The notes beneath the pieces are model-generated. The model was not told where the DNA came from. It was given only the letters and a program-made list of their open reading frames with translations, and did not search any database. A DNA stretch of 64,000 nucleotides, taken from positions 1,302,001 to 1,366,000 of the forward strand of contig CP145412.1 of NCBI GenBank assembly GCA_036867785.1, read 5' to 3'. This DNA is from Plasmodiophora brassicae (taxonomy: Eukaryota). The number at the start of each line of letters is the position of its first letter. The first letter of the stretch is position 1. Made by a program: the position numbers and the translations under genes. This document shows, one piece after another, positions 24,539 through 30,439 of this stretch.

Positions 24539-25916
24539 ATGAGGCAGTGGGGTGCTGCGTTCGCCGCCGGCGCTGCCACCGTACGTTGGGCGTGAGCACG
24601 TGTACGCTGAGCTGAGTGCCAGTGGCAGGCGGCGCGTGCGCGGCTGTCGTCGCGGATGATCCATGCAGTACGCGCTTCGTGATCCGCGCAGGGTATCGAT
24701 CGTGATGGGCGTTGCAGGTCCCGAGGGGGTATCCGAAACGTGTGCGTATCGTGGAGGTGGGCCCAAGGGATGGGTTGCAGAACGAACCGGGCGCTGTAAT
24801 CAAGACGGACGTCAAGGTGGCTCTGATTAACCTGCTGAGCGAGGCGGGACTGTCGGCGATCGAGGCCGCCGCGTTTGTCTCCCCGAAATGGGTGCCTCAG
24901 GTTCAGTATGGCAATGGATGGACCCGCGGGAACGTCTGACATCTGGGCAGATGGCGGACGGCGCCGAGATCATGAAGTCGATACAGAAGCGTGACGGCGT
25001 CGAATACCCGGTTCTCGTCCCAAATCTCGCTGGATTCAAACGTGCTCTGGAAGCTAGTGCTCGCCAGGTAGCGCGCTTGGTTGTGTGTTTATGCGTTCGG
25101 GCAGCAGTTACAGGTTCGTGAACAGGTGGCCGTGTTCGCGTCGGCGTCAGAAGCGTTCAGCCAGAAGAACATCAACTGCTCGATTGATGAGAGCTTTGCA
25201 CGGTTTGAACCGGTCATCCAGGCAGCGCTGGAGAACGATGTGAAAGTTCGAGGGTAGCGTACCACTCTTCAATCTGCTTGCTCGTCGTCTGACAGGACGT
25301 ATGTTCAAGGTACGTGTCCTGCGTGATAGGTTGCCCATACGAAGGCCCAGTTGACTCCGCTGTTGTGGCGTCCGTGTCGCGCCGCCTGCTGGACATGGGA
25401 TGCTATGAGATATCCCTGGGAGACACCATTGGGACCGGAACGCCTGGCACAGTGGAGACCATGCTCTCTGCCGTGACCACGTCCATCCCGATCCATCGGG
25501 TCGCTGTTCACTTTCATGACACGGTCTGTTCGATGTGTCTAACCCGAAACGGGCGGTGCTCACGTTTGAGGTAGTACGGGCAGGCGCTCGCCAACATCCT
25601 GTGCGCCTTCTCGATGGGGGTGTCGGTCGTGGACAGTTCGGTTGCAGGTCTTGGAGGATGCCCCTACGCGCAGGGCGCGACCGGCAATGTCGCCACCGGT
25701 GCGTTGCCCTCCTTTCAGTGCGCTTCCTCTGTTACTGACATTTCGACAGAGGACGTCGTGTACATGCTGCAAGGCATGGGTATTGATTGTGGTGTCGACC
25801 TCGAGAAACTGCTCGACGCCACAAGTTTCATCTGCGATCAGCTAGGTCGCCCTCCAGCTGGGCGAGCCGCCCGCGCCCTTCTCGTCAAACGAGCTAAGGC
25901 GGGCGAATCCGAATAG
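24539..25916 (+). CDS. HMGCL: Hydroxymethylglutaryl-CoA lyase; multi-exon
   Basis: [77 protein letters not shown]. Confidence 0.96.
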
Positions 25917-26015
25917 CACCCAGCGGTCAGTCAGACGTCCTATGGACGCTCCCTGCAGAGTCTCATTTTCAGACATCAGATTCTTGATACATTCGTTTAT
26001 CGTGCTGCCGCAGCG

Positions 26016-29000
26016 TCATTGTGGTTCAGCAACTCGGTATCGGTCTGCCGCTGCCGGCGGGTCTGCGCTCCACTCGTCTGGTTGCCCGGACGAGGCCGAT
26101 GATGTTGCTATCCTAAGGCGCTTCTTGAGCGCCAGGTTCTCGCTGCGAAGCGTATAGAGCTGGAGGCGCATGTGAGCGATCTCCATATCCTTTTCGGTTT
26201 CATGGTCGCCTGTGTTCGTAAATGGGTCGTTGTGGTTGCCGGCGCCGGCATTATCGGTTTCAAGCAGGTTGCGACCGCTGCGGAACGATTGCCGAAGCTT
26301 GGCCCCTGTTAGCGGGCCCGCGTCTGGCTTGCGGGCATAGACAATCCTGGGGAGCGTCAGGCACAGGACGACCATGACGGTCACCACCTCCAGCGACGTG
26401 AACGACATGACGAACGATAACGTCGGGCTGGTGACCACGAACATGGACGTGGGAATGATGACTGTCGACGTGAAGAATATGGCGTACTGTGCTATACTCA
26501 ACGAGCGTGTCTCTGCGAGACGCTCCCAGTCAGAACGGGCGTCAGTCGACAATGGCTACGAAGCGGCCGCACCGTTAAATTCTCTGGGGATCCACCAGCT
26601 CCTCAACGAGACAATCACGCTGGCGACGACGATGCCGCCAAAGTACACGGCCAGGGAGGTCAGCATGTAGACGTCGTATGTGCAATACTTGTCGACGACG
26701 ATGCTCGTGCTGGTCCTGTCGAGCTCCATCGTGCTGATTTCAGGCGGTGACGCCAACATGCCGGCAGTGATGATGACCGCCATCCCCGTCGCCAGCATCA
26801 GGACGTGGCGTGCCACGGTCGTATCGTTCACAGCGACGACGTTCGACGTCTCGGTCCCGACGGCGGAGAATATCCTGAGCATTCGCAGGTTCTTGGCGAA
26901 GATCGTGGATAGGATGGTGACGACCAGCATCGGGAACCACGACATCCTGATGACGCACATGGTGACCGTCGACTCCCAGGCCAGCTGGATGGCCGACCCG
27001 GTCAACAGGCACGACAGGATGCAGATGACGCAGGTGAAACGGACGCTCACAGATCGAACCGCTCGCGTCCTGCGATATCTGATGATGCACCCGAGTGCCG
27101 CCAGGATGATCAGCGACGCGATGATCGATGTCGCGATCGCCAGACCCATGGTCACATCGTCCAGCTGATGTTCCACCTCGGCCATGTCCTGTCCAGCGGG
27201 CACTAATCGACACACTGGCCAGGCGATCGACTGCATCGGGATCTGGTTCACGTCCACATCGCCAGCAGGCACGTCCGGTCCTGTGAACGGTCAGTCGCGC
27301 GTTCTGCCTAGGGGCCCATATCCGGTACCCGTCATCGCTGCTGAACAGGCTGCCCTGTACGCGTAATCAGGCGTCGCTGTCGTGATGAAGGTGGGCCCAG
27401 CGTGGATCGTCCGCGGCGGCGACACGCTCTCGGTGAGGTTCGTGTCGAACACGAGCTCGTTGCCGCCCGTGATGGCGCGTACGAGCATGAGGACGTTCGG
27501 CAGGTACCCCTGCAGGAACGCGTTCTGGTCGACGGCGAAGAACCAGTTGCCCTGGCCCATGGCCGTTAACGCCGACGGGGTCGCCTGCCAGCACGCCCCA
27601 CTGATCTTGCCCTGCCCCAGACCGAACCTATCGCTTCATCAGCACGAAGAACGCCAGATCTCATCTCGCGGCCACCTTCCCGTCCCCTGCAGGACGTTGA
27701 TCGCGTAATCGACCATGTCGACGCCGGGGGCGACGAACAGGTCAGTACCGCTCGCGATGAACGGCGCCATTGCCGACGCGTACAGGGTCTCGTCGAGCGG
27801 GTCCGACAGGAAGGCGTAGTCAGCAGTGACACGCAGCAGCGTTAGGCGGTCGACAACGCCCAGGCAGCGATCTCGCAGGGCGGACACGCCCCGGGTTCCG
27901 TTGAACCCGGCGCCGTCGTACAGGCACGTGACATGGGCGAACCCGCCGGATGCGATCAGGTCGCCCGCCATCGCGCCCGACCCGTAATCCGGCATGAACA
28001 CGTTCACGTCGTACGCCGACGCTGACTGCACCATGGACAGGTCGTTGTGAACACTGACGACCGGCACCTGCCACGTCGCGTTCCCCACGATCGCCCGGGT
28101 TGCCGACAATGACGCGTCGGCGGCAATGCCCACGCCGATCAGGTTGGTCGACGGTATCGACGCGACGTGCGCCGCCGTTGACGAATCGGTGGGCGCGGCC
28201 GGCAGGTATTCACGCACCTGACGACACGTCAGCGACGGTGCGGGGGTGCGTGCGTGCCGGTCGCCTGCTACCTGGACGCCGGCCTCACGTGCCGCCAGGA
28301 TGATCCCGCTGCGCGCCTCCGCCCAGAACGCGTTGTCGGGCGCGCCGTGTACCCATTCGATGCGCCAGTGGGATCGGTCCCAGCAGAGGGCCGACCCGGT
28401 GCACATGGGGAACCCGGCGTCCTGTCGCGCCGCGTTCCCGATCGCGTTCGCGTCGACCGACGTGATCAGCCGGGGGCCCGTTTGCAGCATGGTCGTGGCG
28501 AGGCGCGACCGCGTCAGTCTCAGGGCGTACATGAGGGCGACGCTGAGGTACCCCTGCAGGTACGGCTGCGTGTCGACGAGGAACGGGACCAGGCTGTTGG
28601 GCAGCGCCATCTCCTTCGCAACGCGCTCCTGCATCTCGGTCGGGATGACGATCGTCGTGTTCGCCCCGAGGGATCGGACGGCCTGGATGACGTCGGCGGC
28701 AATGGTGCCCGTCGCGTAGATCGCTGTGACGCCGTCGTGGACGAGGTCGGCGACCTGGCCGGACAGGTTCTGGGCGACGACCTGGCCGCTGGACAGGCCC
28801 GCGCCCCGCATCGTTGCGATCCATCCCTGGCAGCGCAGGTCGTGGCTGGACAACGTGGCGACCTGGTTCAGGCAGACGGTGCTGTTCGCGTACGCCGGCA
28901 ACGTCGCCAGCAGGTGCGATGCCGCCCGCGCGCCCACGACCCGGTTGTCGGGGCCCACGTGGAACACGGGACGCACGGCCGCGTCGCCGAGGAATTGCTC

Positions 29001-29488
29001 GCCAGAGATCACACTGGCGAACGACACCGCCTGGCCCTGCAACGAACGGATCGTCCGCATCGGCGGCGACGACAGGCTCTGCGAATTGGGCGGCGTCAGC
29101 GCAGGGCGGCCGGGCGGGGCACGCAATGACGGACGCTGGAGGACAGCTGAGCGATGACGTTCGTGAACCCGAGATCGACGGCCCTGAGGATCGCGAGCGC
29201 CTGCGCCGTCGGGGAGAACACGTCGTTCGACCAGGTGTGCAGGGGCAGGCCGCGGTCGCTCGCCGCCCTGTTATCGTTCACCCGTCAGCACCGCTGGCCC
29301 ATCGCAAACGCAAACGCGAACACCGACTGCCTGGCGCCGGCCAGGAAGGCGGTGACGAACGGCGTCTTGTTGGGCTCGGCGACGATCACGGCGATCTTGA
29401 TGGCGCGCGGGTCGGTGCAGGGGCAACGCGCGTTCCGGAACAGGCGGTCCTCGACGGCGACGACACCGTCGTCGTCGTCATCTGCCAT
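26016..29488 (-). CDS. Class C (7tm_3) GPCR-like receptor with two tandem periplasmic sugar-binding-protein-like ectodomains
   Basis: VDTQPYLQGY...TGPRLIT and FAVDQNAFLQGY...GPTFIT (type I PBP C-terminal signature twice). Seven hydrophobic segments include AKNLRMLRIF, and IPREFNE is restored by intron 26513-26572. 5' end uncertain. Confidence 0.8.
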
Positions 29489-29821
29489 GCGGTCTGTCAG
29501 TCGCGACCCCCTGTCCCCGCCGACGTCCCGCGTCACGACATGGTTGTGATCCAGTCACTGGGACTGCATGACGCCCTCCGTTCAGGCGGACGACGACGAC
29601 CTCAACAACGGCTCCAGACGTATTGATCAGGTCTGCCCTGGGGCACACGGGTGCGGCGGTCGTTCGAGGGAGTGTGGGTTATATATGCATTCAGACAGAG
29701 ACGGCTGCTATCGCAGAAGGTCGGCCTGCCACTTGGCGAAGTCGACCTTGTTGGGCCTGGTTCGGGTCGGGGCGGCCGTGTCGCGGGCAGACGGTCGTAG
29801 CGCGATCTGGGCACACACGAT

Positions 29822-30439
29822 TCAGAACACGGGGCGGCGCCGCGTCGAGATGGTCCCCACCAGGTCGACCAGCTGGACAATGTCCTCGGCAGGTCCGCCC
29901 AGCTGCGTCGTGGCGGCGTGACTTGCCAGGTGGATCGCCTTCTTGACCGACTTCAGGTTGATCGAGTCGAGACTGGACTCGGTGAGGACAGCCACGGCCG
30001 CTCGGGCCTCCTTGCCGTCCTCGATATGCTTCTGTGAGCCAGTCCGGTCACGATTCTGCCTCGACGTGCCGACTGTGGGCGTACGGCTGCCATGGAATGC
30101 CAGGCGAACAGCCGAATGTAATCGGTGTAGGAGACGACGTCGTGGCAGGACGATTTGGCCACCATGGCCAGCAGATCTTGCAGCTCCTGCACGTCGTTGA
30201 GAGAGGCCATCCCCAAGTTCTGGGATAGAAGCCGGTACAGGTCGTCAATCGTGATGGATCCCGCTATCCCAAGCCGATGTCAGCTCGGACCGAAGCGCGG
30301 GAATCGGCGTCGTACAAGCGCTCGCATCGAACAGGCCGAACAGGGTCGTGACCTCCATCAAATCGGTCGCGTCGAGGTGCTTGTACTTCCGCGCAAAGCT
30401 CGGCTCATGTCGGGCGAGAAGCGCCATGGCGTTCGCCAT
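29822..30439 (-). CDS. Degenerate EF-hand/calmodulin-like protein; multi-exon
   Basis: LMEVTTLFGLFDAS, IDDLYRLL..LG, ELQDLLAMV....DVVSYTDYIRLF, SINLKSVKKAI. Confidence 0.5.

What the first reader, a model, noticed from the sequence alone, without database searches (positions are those of the whole stretch)
26016..29488. GPCR-like receptor with two tandem bacterial sugar-binding-type ectodomains
Seen: two repeats, each opening with a C-x-C/CW..R..I segment followed by an F(W/V)....G helix and closing with D.Q.(Y/F)LQGY...GP..IT, then a 7TM with K.LR..RIF and P.EFNE and a short coiled-coil tail. Established: the DQQPYLQGY-like signature is typical of ABC sugar-binding proteins, whereas animal class C GPCRs have a single amino-acid-binding Venus flytrap. 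Inference: a candidate sugar or exudate chemoreceptor. No clear signal peptide was found, so the 5' model is incomplete.
Basis: partly seen in the sequence, partly recalled or inferred. Interest (0 to 1): 0.7.

Follow-up and report, generated by a model that had tools for sequence, protein, structure and literature searches.

The report
Clubroot parasite receptor with two sugar-type domains
This is a real, spliced gene of the clubroot parasite Plasmodiophora brassicae for a class C GPCR-like receptor whose sensing part is two bacterial sugar-binding-type modules in a row; the design also occurs in diatoms and its function has not been tested.

Summary
Window 26016-29488 (minus strand) is a 7-exon gene. 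Its spliced product is letter for letter a public 1048-aa Plasmodiophora brassicae protein. It carries two Peripla_BP_4 (CUT2 sugar-binding type) modules, aa 16-320 and 332-642. A Cys-containing stalk follows, then a 7tm_3 class C heptahelical domain and a tail with a four-heptad leucine zipper. No ANF_receptor or NCD3G match was found. All six 48-60-nt introns appear as joints in RNA-like contigs and none in a DNA run. The intron-5 joint links the last binding-module exon in frame to the 7TM exon. The architecture is not unique: 15 of 105 relatives share it, mostly diatom sequences, and a 2013 diatom paper noted sugar-type N-termini. The ligand and a chemoreceptor role remain inference. In passing: a published "effector" candidate, Pb4_104154, is the antisense ORF of this gene's 7TM exon.

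The parts
26016..29488 (-). Whole coding region (ATG 29488 to TGA 26018-26016), 7 exons and 3147 nt of CDS, encoding a 1048-aa protein
   Evidence: The spliced translation equals public protein P0109 letter for letter. P0109 is named 'G-protein coupled receptors family 3 profile domain-containing protein', Plasmodiophora brassicae.
29489..29575 (-). 5' UTR, at least 87 nt, with two tiny upstream ORFs (ATG CAG TCC CAG TGA and ATG TCG TGA) and an in-frame stop at 29555-29557
   Evidence: The X1 contig ends at 29575 with no joint upstream of intron 1. The sequence is and the ORF limits.
29328..29488 (-). Exon 1 (aa 1-54): acidic N-terminus with no hydrophobic signal segment, the C22-x-C24 motif, and the start of binding module 1
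29268..29327 (-). Intron 1, 60 nt, GT..AG, with CTGAC near the 3' end
   Evidence: Joint in the X1 contig, absent in DNA run X15..
29135..29267 (-). Exon 2 (aa 54-98)
29079..29134 (-). Intron 2, 56 nt, the only intron whose length is not a multiple of 3
   Evidence: Joint in an X5 contig; retained in the X1 contig.
28272..29078 (-). Exon 3 (aa 99-367): most of binding module 1, the inter-module linker with GFPMC324 and C330, and the start of module 2
   Evidence: This exon alone matches PDB 4ru1_A (CUT2 monosaccharide-binding protein) at E 3.8e-4.
28218..28271 (-). Intron 3, 54 nt, in frame and without a stop codon, so invisible to ORF reading
   Evidence: Joint in X1. Paralogue P0002 lacks these 18 residues.
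27676..28217 (-). Exon 4 (aa 368-548): middle of binding module 2
27628..27675 (-). Intron 4, 48 nt, containing TGA TGA
   Evidence: Joint in X1.
27329..27627 (-). Exon 5 (aa 548-647): end of binding module 2 (VDQNAFLQGY...AGPTFIT) and C642
27281..27328 (-). Intron 5, 48 nt. Removing it joins the binding modules in frame to the 7TM domain. Retaining it gives the truncated 659-aa public model P0108.
   Evidence: Joint in X1, X3 and X5, which come from three studies; absent in DNA run X15. P0108 ends ...GTGYGPLGRTRD, which is read into this intron.
26573..27280 (-). Exon 6 (aa 648-884): stalk with WPVC671 and TM1-TM5, including KNLRMLRIF and PREFN
   Evidence: Pfam 7tm_3. Hydropathy.
26513..26572 (-). 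Intron 6, 60 nt
   Evidence: Joint in an X5 contig; retained in the X1 contig.
26016..26512 (-). Exon 7 (aa 884-1048): TM6, TM7, the cytoplasmic tail and the stop codon
28413..29443 (-). Binding module 1 (aa 16-320), Peripla_BP_4/CUT2 type; the span includes introns 1 and 2
   Evidence: Custom profile 4e-38. AlphaFold2 model residues 25-319 versus 4ru1_A: Z 30.8, rmsd 1.9 over 278 residues.
27345..28379 (-). Binding module 2 (aa 332-642), Peripla_BP_4/CUT2 type; the span includes introns 3 and 4
   Evidence: Custom profile 2.4e-25. Model residues 334-945 align with the GABA(B) receptor flytrap plus 7TM (6wiv_B, Z 25.9, 511 aligned).
26349..27143 (-). 7tm_3 heptahelical domain (aa 694-938); the span includes intron 6
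   Evidence: 85.1 bits. Seven hydrophobic segments lie between aa 696 and 935. Alignment to the mGlu2 7TM.
26103..26180 (-). Leucine-zipper-like heptads (aa 995-1020; a/d core I-M-L-L-N-L-L-A) within the predicted tail helix aa 989-1022
   Evidence: The core, including the Asn, is conserved in paralogue P0002 (L-L-N-L-L).

Best explanation
The locus encodes a membrane receptor of the class C (family 3) GPCR kind in the clubroot protist Plasmodiophora brassicae. Its sensing part is not the animal ANF/LIVBP-type Venus flytrap. It is two tandem type I periplasmic-binding-protein clamshells of the CUT2 monosaccharide-binding subfamily, the one carrying the 'DQQPYLQGY...TGP' signature.

Shown here: the 7-exon gene structure, one spliced transcript, the identity and order of the domains, class C motifs in the 7TM, and a heptad-repeat tail.

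Inferred: a small carbohydrate-like ligand (monosaccharide or polyol most likely) closes one clamshell, most likely the membrane-proximal module 2, which is collinear with the GABA(B) flytrap. The movement passes through the roughly 50-residue Cys-containing stalk to the 7TM domain of a dimeric receptor. The dimer may be helped by the tail zipper. The 7TM then activates a heterotrimeric G protein. Module 1 either binds a second ligand or acts as a modulatory or dimerising module.

The biological role would be nutrient or host-cue sensing by zoospores or intracellular plasmodia. That role is a guess.
For: Gene and transcript: my spliced model equals public protein P0109. All 6 of 6 introns appear as CT..AC joints on the + strand in RNA-like contigs, so the transcripts are minus-strand. 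X1 shows introns 1, 3, 4 and 5; X5 shows 2, 5 and 6; X3 shows 5. None of the 9 listed joints appears in DNA run X15. One 4535-nt X1 contig spans 29575 to below 25800.

Domains: Pfam gives Peripla_BP_4 at 1.7e-25 (2 stretches) and 7tm_3 at 8.2e-24, with no ANF_receptor, Peripla_BP_6 or NCD3G listed at E <= 1. There are two profile hits at aa 16-320 and 332-642.

Sugar type: the family profile hits CUT2 monosaccharide-binding proteins first (4ru1_A 1.3e-67, then glucose-, arabinose-, ribose- and allose-binding proteins). Exon 3 alone hits 4ru1_A at 3.8e-4.

Fold: the AlphaFold2 model has mean pLDDT 80.5 and pTM 0.68. Module 1 matches 4ru1_A at Z 30.8, rmsd 1.9 over 278 residues. Residues 334-945 align with the GABA(B) receptor 6wiv_B at Z 25.9. 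Foldseek's top hits mix full-length mGlu, GABA(B) and CaSR receptors with sugar-binding proteins.

Class C motifs: the alignment to mGlu2 places C756 (top of TM3) and C847 (ECL2) on the receptor's cysteines. It also places K/R of KNLRMLRIF on KTNRIARIF, PREFNE on PENFNE, and LPRI on APKL. These are the residues named as class C hallmarks in passages of PMC3727952.

Topology: the positive-inside count predicts N-out. K+R counts are ICL1 5, ICL2 4, ICL3 3 and tail 16, against ECL1 0, ECL2 2, ECL3 0 and 1 in the 35 residues before TM1.

Family: 15 of 105 non-self relatives carry 7tm_3 plus Peripla_BP_4. The nearest ESM Atlas cluster is 7tm_3 100% and Peripla_BP_4 94%, with 79 members, mostly diatoms.
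Against: No ligand, G-protein coupling, dimerisation or localisation was tested here or, as far as my searches show, in print.

The protein and its paralogue have no N-terminal signal peptide. At least 8 of 13 other full-length relatives have a strongly hydrophobic N-terminus. How a ~690-residue N-terminal domain would reach the outside is therefore open.

Two of the five conserved family motifs are altered in the Plasmodiophora pair: 'HG..D.FW' is lost in module 1, and the 'FD' motif is replaced in both modules by PTE and CWQ. That these motifs line the sugar pocket in bacterial relatives is my recollection of E. coli ribose-binding protein, not a call result.

The X1 contig retains introns 2 and 6. 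One low-depth X5 joint (27736->27782, 45 nt, side 25) fits no model. The runs are labelled 'RNA?' as a guess only; that they are RNA rests on the splice joints.

The same architecture in free-living diatoms argues against a role specific to plant exudates.
Confidence: 0.6

Rival explanations
1. Same receptor, but the ligand is not a sugar. The Plasmodiophora modules have diverged to bind something else, such as an amino acid, an ion or a furanosyl signal like AI-2. Alternatively only one module binds and the other is structural, like the amino-terminal domain of ionotropic glutamate receptors.
For: Module 1 has lost the 'HG..D.FW' motif, and both modules have lost the 'FD' motif kept in diatom-type members. 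The same fold group includes AI-2 receptors LsrB (Z about 26), TorT and the XylFII sensor partner. The only phytomyxid zoospore attractant named in a paper I read is glutamine, for Spongospora (passages of PMC8921600).
Against: The best sequence and fold matches are all to monosaccharide or polyol binders. The Asp, Arg and Gln of motifs 2, 3 and 5 are kept in both modules.
Confidence: 0.3
2. The binding modules stay in the cytosol because there is no signal peptide. The protein would then sense an internal metabolite, or it would be a mis-targeted or non-canonical membrane protein and not a surface receptor.
For: There is no hydrophobic N-terminus in P0109 or P0002 (maximum 15-residue Kyte-Doolittle score before the first CxC is 0.40 and 1.01). 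The 5' end is supported by a contig and an in-frame stop.
Against: The positive-inside distribution predicts N-out. Cysteine motifs before and after each module (CxC and FPxC/WPVC) are conserved family-wide, as expected for disulfides outside the cell. The nearest non-Plasmodiophora relative P0101 and most other members do have a hydrophobic N-terminus. An inverted 7TM would put the G-protein-facing loops outside.
Confidence: 0.1
3. Two separate products: a soluble 659-aa binding protein (public model P0108 / PBRA_005340) and a separate 7TM protein.
For: One public annotation ends inside intron 5. Contigs with retained introns exist: X1 retains 2 and 6, and an X3 piece covers 29116-29438 unspliced.
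Against: Intron 5 is spliced out in contigs of all three RNA-like runs laid, with 49 to 255 nt on the shorter side. The splice keeps the reading frame into TM1. Paralogue P0002 and 14 other relatives are fused the same way.
Confidence: 0.04

Closest known systems
Diatom class C GPCR-like proteins with sugar-transporter-type N-termini (Port et al. 2013, PMC3727952). Database relatives include Seminavis robusta 'acid type B receptor subunit 1' (P0086) and Entomoneis paludosa P0068.
   Same: Same three-part design: Peripla_BP_4 module(s), a Cys-containing stalk and 7tm_3. 12 of the 15 fused relatives show two Pfam stretches. The CxC...FPxC cysteine frame and the DQQPYLQGY...TGP signatures are shared. 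[quoted passage not shown]
   Different: Only about 16-23% identical to the window's protein. The diatom forms keep all five conserved family motifs in both modules and have hydrophobic N-termini. Orthology of the membrane-proximal module across lineages is only weakly supported (UFboot 63 / SH-aLRT 86). None has been functionally characterised in what I read.
Metazoan GABA(B) receptor (class C GPCR)
   Same: A clamshell joined to the 7TM without the nine-cysteine domain. Model residues 334-945 are collinear with 6wiv_B (Z 25.9). Both have a coiled-coil-like C-tail; that GABA(B) subunits pair through such a tail is recalled knowledge. There are two paralogues in the genome (P0109, P0002).
   Different: The flytrap is of the ANF_receptor/LIVBP type in GABA(B) and of the CUT2 sugar type here. 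An extra distal module is present here. Sequence identity is about 10-11%. Heterodimerisation was not tested here.
Bacterial CUT2 monosaccharide-binding proteins (e.g. PDB 4ru1 ACEI_1806, ribose-, glucose/galactose- and allose-binding proteins)
   Same: Same fold and signature motifs (Z 26-31). From recalled knowledge, some of them (ribose- and galactose-binding proteins) also serve as chemotaxis sensors by docking onto a membrane transducer. This is the closest analogy for how the module would work.
   Different: Those are free periplasmic proteins with signal peptides that feed ABC transporters or chemoreceptors. Here two copies are fused to a eukaryotic 7TM and there is no signal peptide.
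Non-canonical class C GPCRs of early-diverging fungi and Amoebozoa (Krishnan 2012 PMC3251606; Seppala 2016 PMC5168858; Dictyostelium fAR1, PMC5969738)
   Same: Class C 7TM combined with binding-protein domains other than ANF (BMP, SBP_bac_1, OpuAC, LysR_substrate, type II sugar SBPs) and no NCD3G (passages read). fAR1 shows that a protist class C receptor can be a chemoattractant receptor (search-listing abstract only).
   Different: Those papers list no Peripla_BP_4 module and no tandem type I pair. The gut-fungal sugar-type domains are structural type II, whereas here both are type I.

Membership tests
Class C (family 3) GPCR, Pfam 7tm_3 | Heptahelical domain matching the 7tm_3 profile above the curated cut-off | tested here: met
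   85.1 bits against a cut-off of 33.5, aa 694-938. Seven hydrophobic segments.
Class C (family 3) GPCR, Pfam 7tm_3 | Conserved TM3-ECL2 cysteine pair, basic residues at the cytoplasmic end of TM3, acidic residue in the TM6 'FNE' motif, and the TM7 'PK' motif | tested here: met
   The alignment to mGlu2 places C756 and C847 on the receptor's cysteines. It also places KNLRMLRIF on KTNRIARIF, PREFNE on PENFNE and LPRI on APKL, with K changed to R here; the paralogue has LPKL. The residues are those named in PMC3727952 passages.
Class C (family 3) GPCR, Pfam 7tm_3 | Large N-terminal clamshell of the periplasmic-binding-protein superfamily ahead of TM1 | tested here: met
   Two such modules. Module 2 plus the 7TM is collinear with the GABA(B) receptor.
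Class C (family 3) GPCR, Pfam 7tm_3 | G-protein coupling and obligate dimerisation | not tested
The one complex-prediction job (two copies of the tail) could never be queued.
Animal-type class C receptors (mGlu/CaSR/TAS1R) | ANF_receptor-type flytrap and the NCD3G nine-cysteine domain | tested here: not met
   Neither family is listed at E <= 1 for P0109 or P0002. HMMER's filters drop most very weak matches.
Peripla_BP_4 / CUT2 sugar-binding proteins | Profile match above the cut-off and a two-lobed type I fold | tested here: met
   90.5 bits against 35.1, two stretches. Z 30.8, rmsd 1.9 over 278 residues to 4ru1_A. Module 2 scores 2.4e-25 with my profile.
Peripla_BP_4 / CUT2 sugar-binding proteins | Intact sugar-contact residues | tested here: inconclusive
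   Motifs 2, 3 and 5 (Asp, Arg, Gln) are kept in both modules. Motif 1 is lost in module 1 and motif 4 ('FD') is replaced in both. Which residues contact sugar is recalled from E. coli ribose-binding protein and was not computed.
Peripla_BP_4 / CUT2 sugar-binding proteins | Secreted or periplasmic protein with a signal peptide that serves an ABC transporter | tested here: not met
   No hydrophobic N-terminus. The modules are fused to a 7TM domain and are not free.
Tandem Peripla_BP_4 + 7tm_3 family of diatoms and Plasmodiophora | Order module-module-stalk-7TM, with CxC before and (C..)FPxC after each module | tested here: met
   Alignment blocks. 15 of 105 relatives carry both Pfam families. 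The Plasmodiophora pair lacks the first Cys of the linker motif and one Cys of the second CxC.

The most novel reading that the evidence does not exclude
The two Plasmodiophora paralogues (P0109 and P0002) would form a GABA(B)-like obligate dimer through their conserved Asn-containing leucine-zipper tails. This dimer would be the parasite's sensor for host-derived sugars or polyols. The tandem clamshells would reach the cell surface without any signal peptide, by an unconventional route. It would be the first host- or nutrient-sensing GPCR defined in Phytomyxea, and a class C receptor with two stacked ligand modules.
Probability: 0.12. Interest if true: 0.65.

Novelty: new member of a known kind. 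Interest (0 to 1): 0.4.

Why it matters
Plasmodiophora brassicae causes clubroot of brassica crops, and nothing is known about the receptors by which it senses hosts or nutrients. This gene and its one paralogue are concrete, transcript-supported candidates. Each has a soluble ectodomain that can be expressed and screened for ligands.

More generally, the family shows that class C receptors were built more than once from different branches of the bacterial binding-protein superfamily, here a sugar-type branch used twice in tandem. The missing signal peptide is a clear cell-biological puzzle.

Practically, the work settles which of two conflicting public gene models is right. It also shows that a published effector candidate from this locus is most likely a wrong-strand gene call.

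Tried and rejected
- Alternative genetic code or pseudogene for the in-frame stops: rejected. Every stop lies in a 48-60-nt GT..AG intron that RNA-like contigs remove.
- Upstream signal-peptide exon: the AG at 29482, preceded by CTGAC, looked like an acceptor. No contig uses it, and no ATG-led hydrophobic ORF lies between 29483 and the upstream gene.
- Whole genome: none is held for this window.
- Earlier findings of this scan: nothing by place or by sequence.
- Word-indexed homologue searches were insensitive. They returned 1 hit (Pseudo-nitzschia, 'longer') and 2 hits (P0002 and an Allomyces receptor). The exhaustive search supplied the family.
- Single-sequence PDB search with the whole protein found only the mGlu2 7TM, at E about 1e-3.
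- Paralogues within the window: none (tblastn).
- RNA holders: no listed holder is on record as RNA. The runs were judged RNA-derived only from their splice joints.
- Bi et al. 2019 on GPCR signalling in P. brassicae is not held. I know it only through a review's passages (PMC9180986).
- A search for the gene's accession numbers found only the effector paper. No held paper contains both 'Peripla_BP_4' and 'GPCR'. A five-term search of class C / GPCR / sugar-binding / diatom / periplasmic from 2014 on found nothing relevant.
- The ligand of PDB 4ru1 could not be learned from the library.
- Domain tree: whether first and last modules are each orthologous across lineages stays unresolved. The last-module group has 63/86 support, the Plasmodiophora module 1 sits in a polytomy, and there are long-branch warnings for P0042, P0012 and P0101.
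Full report
**What is at the coordinates**

On the minus strand between 29488 and 26016, stop-to-stop reading gives six consecutive open frames. Five of the six breaks between them are in-frame stops. The sequence around each break has a GT start and a CTGAC or CTGAT motif 10-20 nt before a YAG end. Trial splicing gave a 7-exon, 3147-nt CDS with introns of 60, 56, 54, 48, 48 and 60 nt. The paralogue P0002 guided the exact splice choices.

The translation is letter for letter the public 1048-aa protein P0109. Its sources name it 'G-protein coupled receptors family 3 profile domain-containing protein' of Plasmodiophora brassicae. A second public model, P0108 (PBRA_005340, 659 aa, 'Periplasmic binding protein domain-containing protein'), reads into intron 5 and stops there. 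It therefore lacks the 7TM half.

**Transcript evidence**

No run is on record as RNA. I laid Logan contigs of three 'RNA?' runs from three studies, plus one run that holds 0.99 of the sampled words and looks like DNA. All six predicted introns appear as joints with CT..AC ends on the + strand, which means GT..AG on the minus strand.
- X1 shows introns 1, 3, 4 and 5.
- X5 shows introns 2, 5 and 6.
- X3 shows intron 5.
- X15, the DNA-like run, shows none of the nine joints listed.

A single 4535-nt X1 contig runs from 29575 through the whole gene. It retains introns 2 and 6. It continues past 25800 into the convergent HMGL-like gene, so it merges two transcripts at its 3' end.

It joins the last binding-module exon to the 7TM exon in frame. 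One low-depth X5 joint (27736->27782, 45 nt, side 25) fits no model, and I leave it unexplained.

**The 5' end**

The X1 contig is unspliced from intron 1 up to 29575. An in-frame stop lies at 29555-29557. Two tiny uORFs precede the ATG. The upstream minus-strand gene's contig ends at 29692. No ATG-led hydrophobic ORF lies in between. So the protein starts MADDDDDGVVAVEDRLF... and has no signal peptide.

The paralogue P0002 also lacks a signal peptide. At least 8 of 13 other full-length relatives, including the nearest non-Plasmodiophora relative P0101, have their strongest hydrophobic 15-mer (Kyte-Doolittle >= 2.0) within the first 32 residues. The positive-inside count still predicts the canonical N-out topology. 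K+R counts are ICL1 5, ICL2 4, ICL3 3 and tail 16, against 0, 2 and 0 in the extracellular loops. How the ~690-residue N-terminal part crosses the membrane is unexplained.

**Domains**

- Pfam on P0109 gives Peripla_BP_4 (E 1.7e-25, two stretches) and 7tm_3 (E 8.2e-24). No ANF_receptor, Peripla_BP_6 or NCD3G is listed at E <= 1.
- A profile I built from 29 single-domain relatives hits aa 16-320 (4e-38) and aa 332-642 (2.4e-25).
- The family profile (50 sequences) hits solved CUT2 monosaccharide-binding proteins first. 4ru1_A scores 1.3e-67, followed by glucose-, arabinose-, ribose-, allose- and galactose-binding proteins.
- Exon 3 of the window alone hits 4ru1_A at 3.8e-4, aligning GPDN, RCQGW, DTQPYLQGY and TGP.
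- The AlphaFold2 model has mean pLDDT 80.5 and pTM 0.68. Module 1 is mostly above 90, the 7TM is at 75-88, and the tail is low.
- Module 1 superposes on 4ru1_A with Z 30.8, rmsd 1.9 over 278 residues. Residues 334-945 align collinearly with the GABA(B) receptor flytrap plus 7TM (6wiv_B, Z 25.9, 511 residues; the large rmsd reflects domain orientation).
- Foldseek's best hits mix full-length mGlu, GABA(B) and CaSR receptors with sugar-binding proteins.
- The sequence alignment to mGlu2 (E about 1e-3) shows the TM3 and ECL2 cysteines, the K/R of KNLRMLRIF, PREFNE and a TM7 P-R in place of P-K. Passages of PMC3727952 name these as class C hallmarks.
- The tail has four heptads with core I-M-L-L-N-L-L-A (aa 995-1020). 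The core and its Asn are conserved in P0002.

**Relatives**

An exhaustive search of 1.84 billion representatives with the 467-aa exon 3-4 stretch (read through in-frame intron 3) found only 106 proteins at E <= 1e-3. Two were at E <= 1e-30: the window's own exon ORF and P0002, a paralogue in the same species at 38-42% identity.

Of the 105 non-self hits, 15 carry both 7tm_3 and Peripla_BP_4, and 12 of these show two Pfam stretches. Other hits fuse the tandem pair to a guanylate cyclase (P0081), to a kinase (P0038) or to SBP_bac_3 (P0004). Many are two-module proteins without a detected 7TM, and the rest are single-domain binding proteins.

The named sources are diatoms (Seminavis, Entomoneis, Thalassiosira, Pseudo-nitzschia) and marine transcriptomes. 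The nearest ESM Atlas cluster is 7tm_3 100% and Peripla_BP_4 94%, with 79 members, commonest Bacillariophyta.

The family shares a cysteine frame: CxC before each module and (C...)FPxC after it. It also shares five conserved motifs per module. The Plasmodiophora pair (and P0101) has lost motif 1 in module 1 and replaced the 'FD' motif in both modules.

In a maximum-likelihood tree, the two Plasmodiophora copies pair module by module (100/100 and 100/99). So the whole tandem gene duplicated. Their last module groups with the last modules of diatom-type members only weakly (63/86), and there are long-branch warnings.

**Literature**

- Passages of Port et al. 2013 (PMC3727952) report diatom class C-like GPCRs. 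[quoted passage not shown]
- Passages of Krishnan et al. 2012 and Seppala et al. 2016 document other non-ANF binding-protein domains on class C receptors in fungi and Dictyostelium.
- No held paper contains both 'Peripla_BP_4' and 'GPCR'.
- A review's passages (PMC9180986) say Bi et al. 2019 identified a GPCR pathway in P. brassicae and that an inhibitor reduced symptoms. That paper is not held, so it may already list this gene.
- Glutamine is cited as a zoospore attractant for the related Spongospora (PMC8921600 passages).

**Interpretation**

The architecture claim is solid. The mechanism is by analogy. A clamshell closes on a small ligand and drives a dimeric class C 7TM through the stalk. 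The membrane-proximal module takes the place of the GABA(B) flytrap. The distal module is either a second sensor or a modulatory module.

A carbohydrate-like ligand is the most likely class, given the closest sequence and fold relatives. The altered motifs leave real room for another ligand. The 'exudate chemoreceptor' role is possible but has no support beyond the organism's biology.

**Side finding**

The + strand ORF 26701-27168 lies wholly inside exon 6. It is 155 aa from its first ATG, carries IRRFLAK at residues 61-67 and begins with a hydrophobic stretch. This is the published candidate effector Pb4_104154 of PMC9530463, for these reasons:
- The paper's table gives the same length and motif and a best hit to SPQ95396.1, which is P0109.
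- The supplementary CDS starts with the same bases, and the motif position is the same.
- The paper's two qPCR primers each match the window once, at 26721-26740 (+) and 26821-26840 (-).
- At the protein level the ORF has no similarity to P0109. A translated search of its nucleotides hits P0109 aa 686-840 at 100% identity on the reverse frame.

All splice joints show minus-strand transcription, and a qPCR amplicon cannot tell strand. The 'effector' is therefore most likely a wrong-strand gene call over transmembrane-helix codons. Contigs cannot exclude an unspliced antisense RNA.

Noticed in passing
window 26701-27168 (+), inside exon 6 of the receptor gene: This antisense ORF (155 aa, IRRFLAK at residues 61-67, hydrophobic start) is the published 'putative effector' Pb4_104154 of PMC9530463, reported there to suppress cell death in 10 of 12 tests. 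The paper's CDS start, motif position and both qPCR primers match here. The ORF's only link to SPQ95396.1 is a reverse-frame translated hit. It is most likely a wrong-strand gene call over TM-helix codons.
   Followed up: yes
window 27281-27328 (intron 5) and public model P0108: The public model PBRA_005340 (659 aa) retains intron 5 and stops inside it, which splits the 7TM half off the gene. Three RNA-like runs splice this intron out, so the 1048-aa model is the right one.
   Followed up: yes
window ~25072-25979 (+): A convergent HMGL-like (HMG-CoA lyase type) gene lies here, with Pfam hits in three ORF pieces. A 54-nt GT..AG intron at about 25925-25978 is spliced in X1, X3 and X5. The X1 contig joins it to the receptor's 3' end, so the two transcripts' ends overlap or abut.
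   Followed up: partly
window 29692-30280 (-): An upstream minus-strand gene has a 54-nt intron at 29807-29860 that is spliced in X1, X3 and X5. None of the ORF pieces I scanned has a Pfam family. Its contig ends at 29692, only about 117 nt from the receptor transcript's contig end.
   Followed up: partly
window 29497-29567 (-), 5' UTR: Two very short upstream ORFs (4 and 2 codons) precede the receptor's ATG. They may or may not affect translation.
   Followed up: no
introns of the gene (six; see parts): All six introns are 48-60 nt. Each has CTGAC or CTGAT 10-20 nt before the 3' AG. Five of the six lengths are multiples of three, and one (intron 3) has no stop codon, so naive ORF reading runs straight through it.
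   Followed up: yes
window 27736-27782: One low-depth X5 contig shows a 45-nt joint with GT..AG ends on the + strand inside exon 4 (25 nt on the shorter side). It fits no gene model. It may be an assembly artefact or a rare event.
   Followed up: no
relatives P0081, P0038, P0004 (not in the window): The same tandem sugar-type module pair is fused in other protists to a guanylate or adenylate cyclase, to a protein kinase, or to an SBP_bac_3 domain. The pair therefore looks like a portable sensor cassette.
   Followed up: partly
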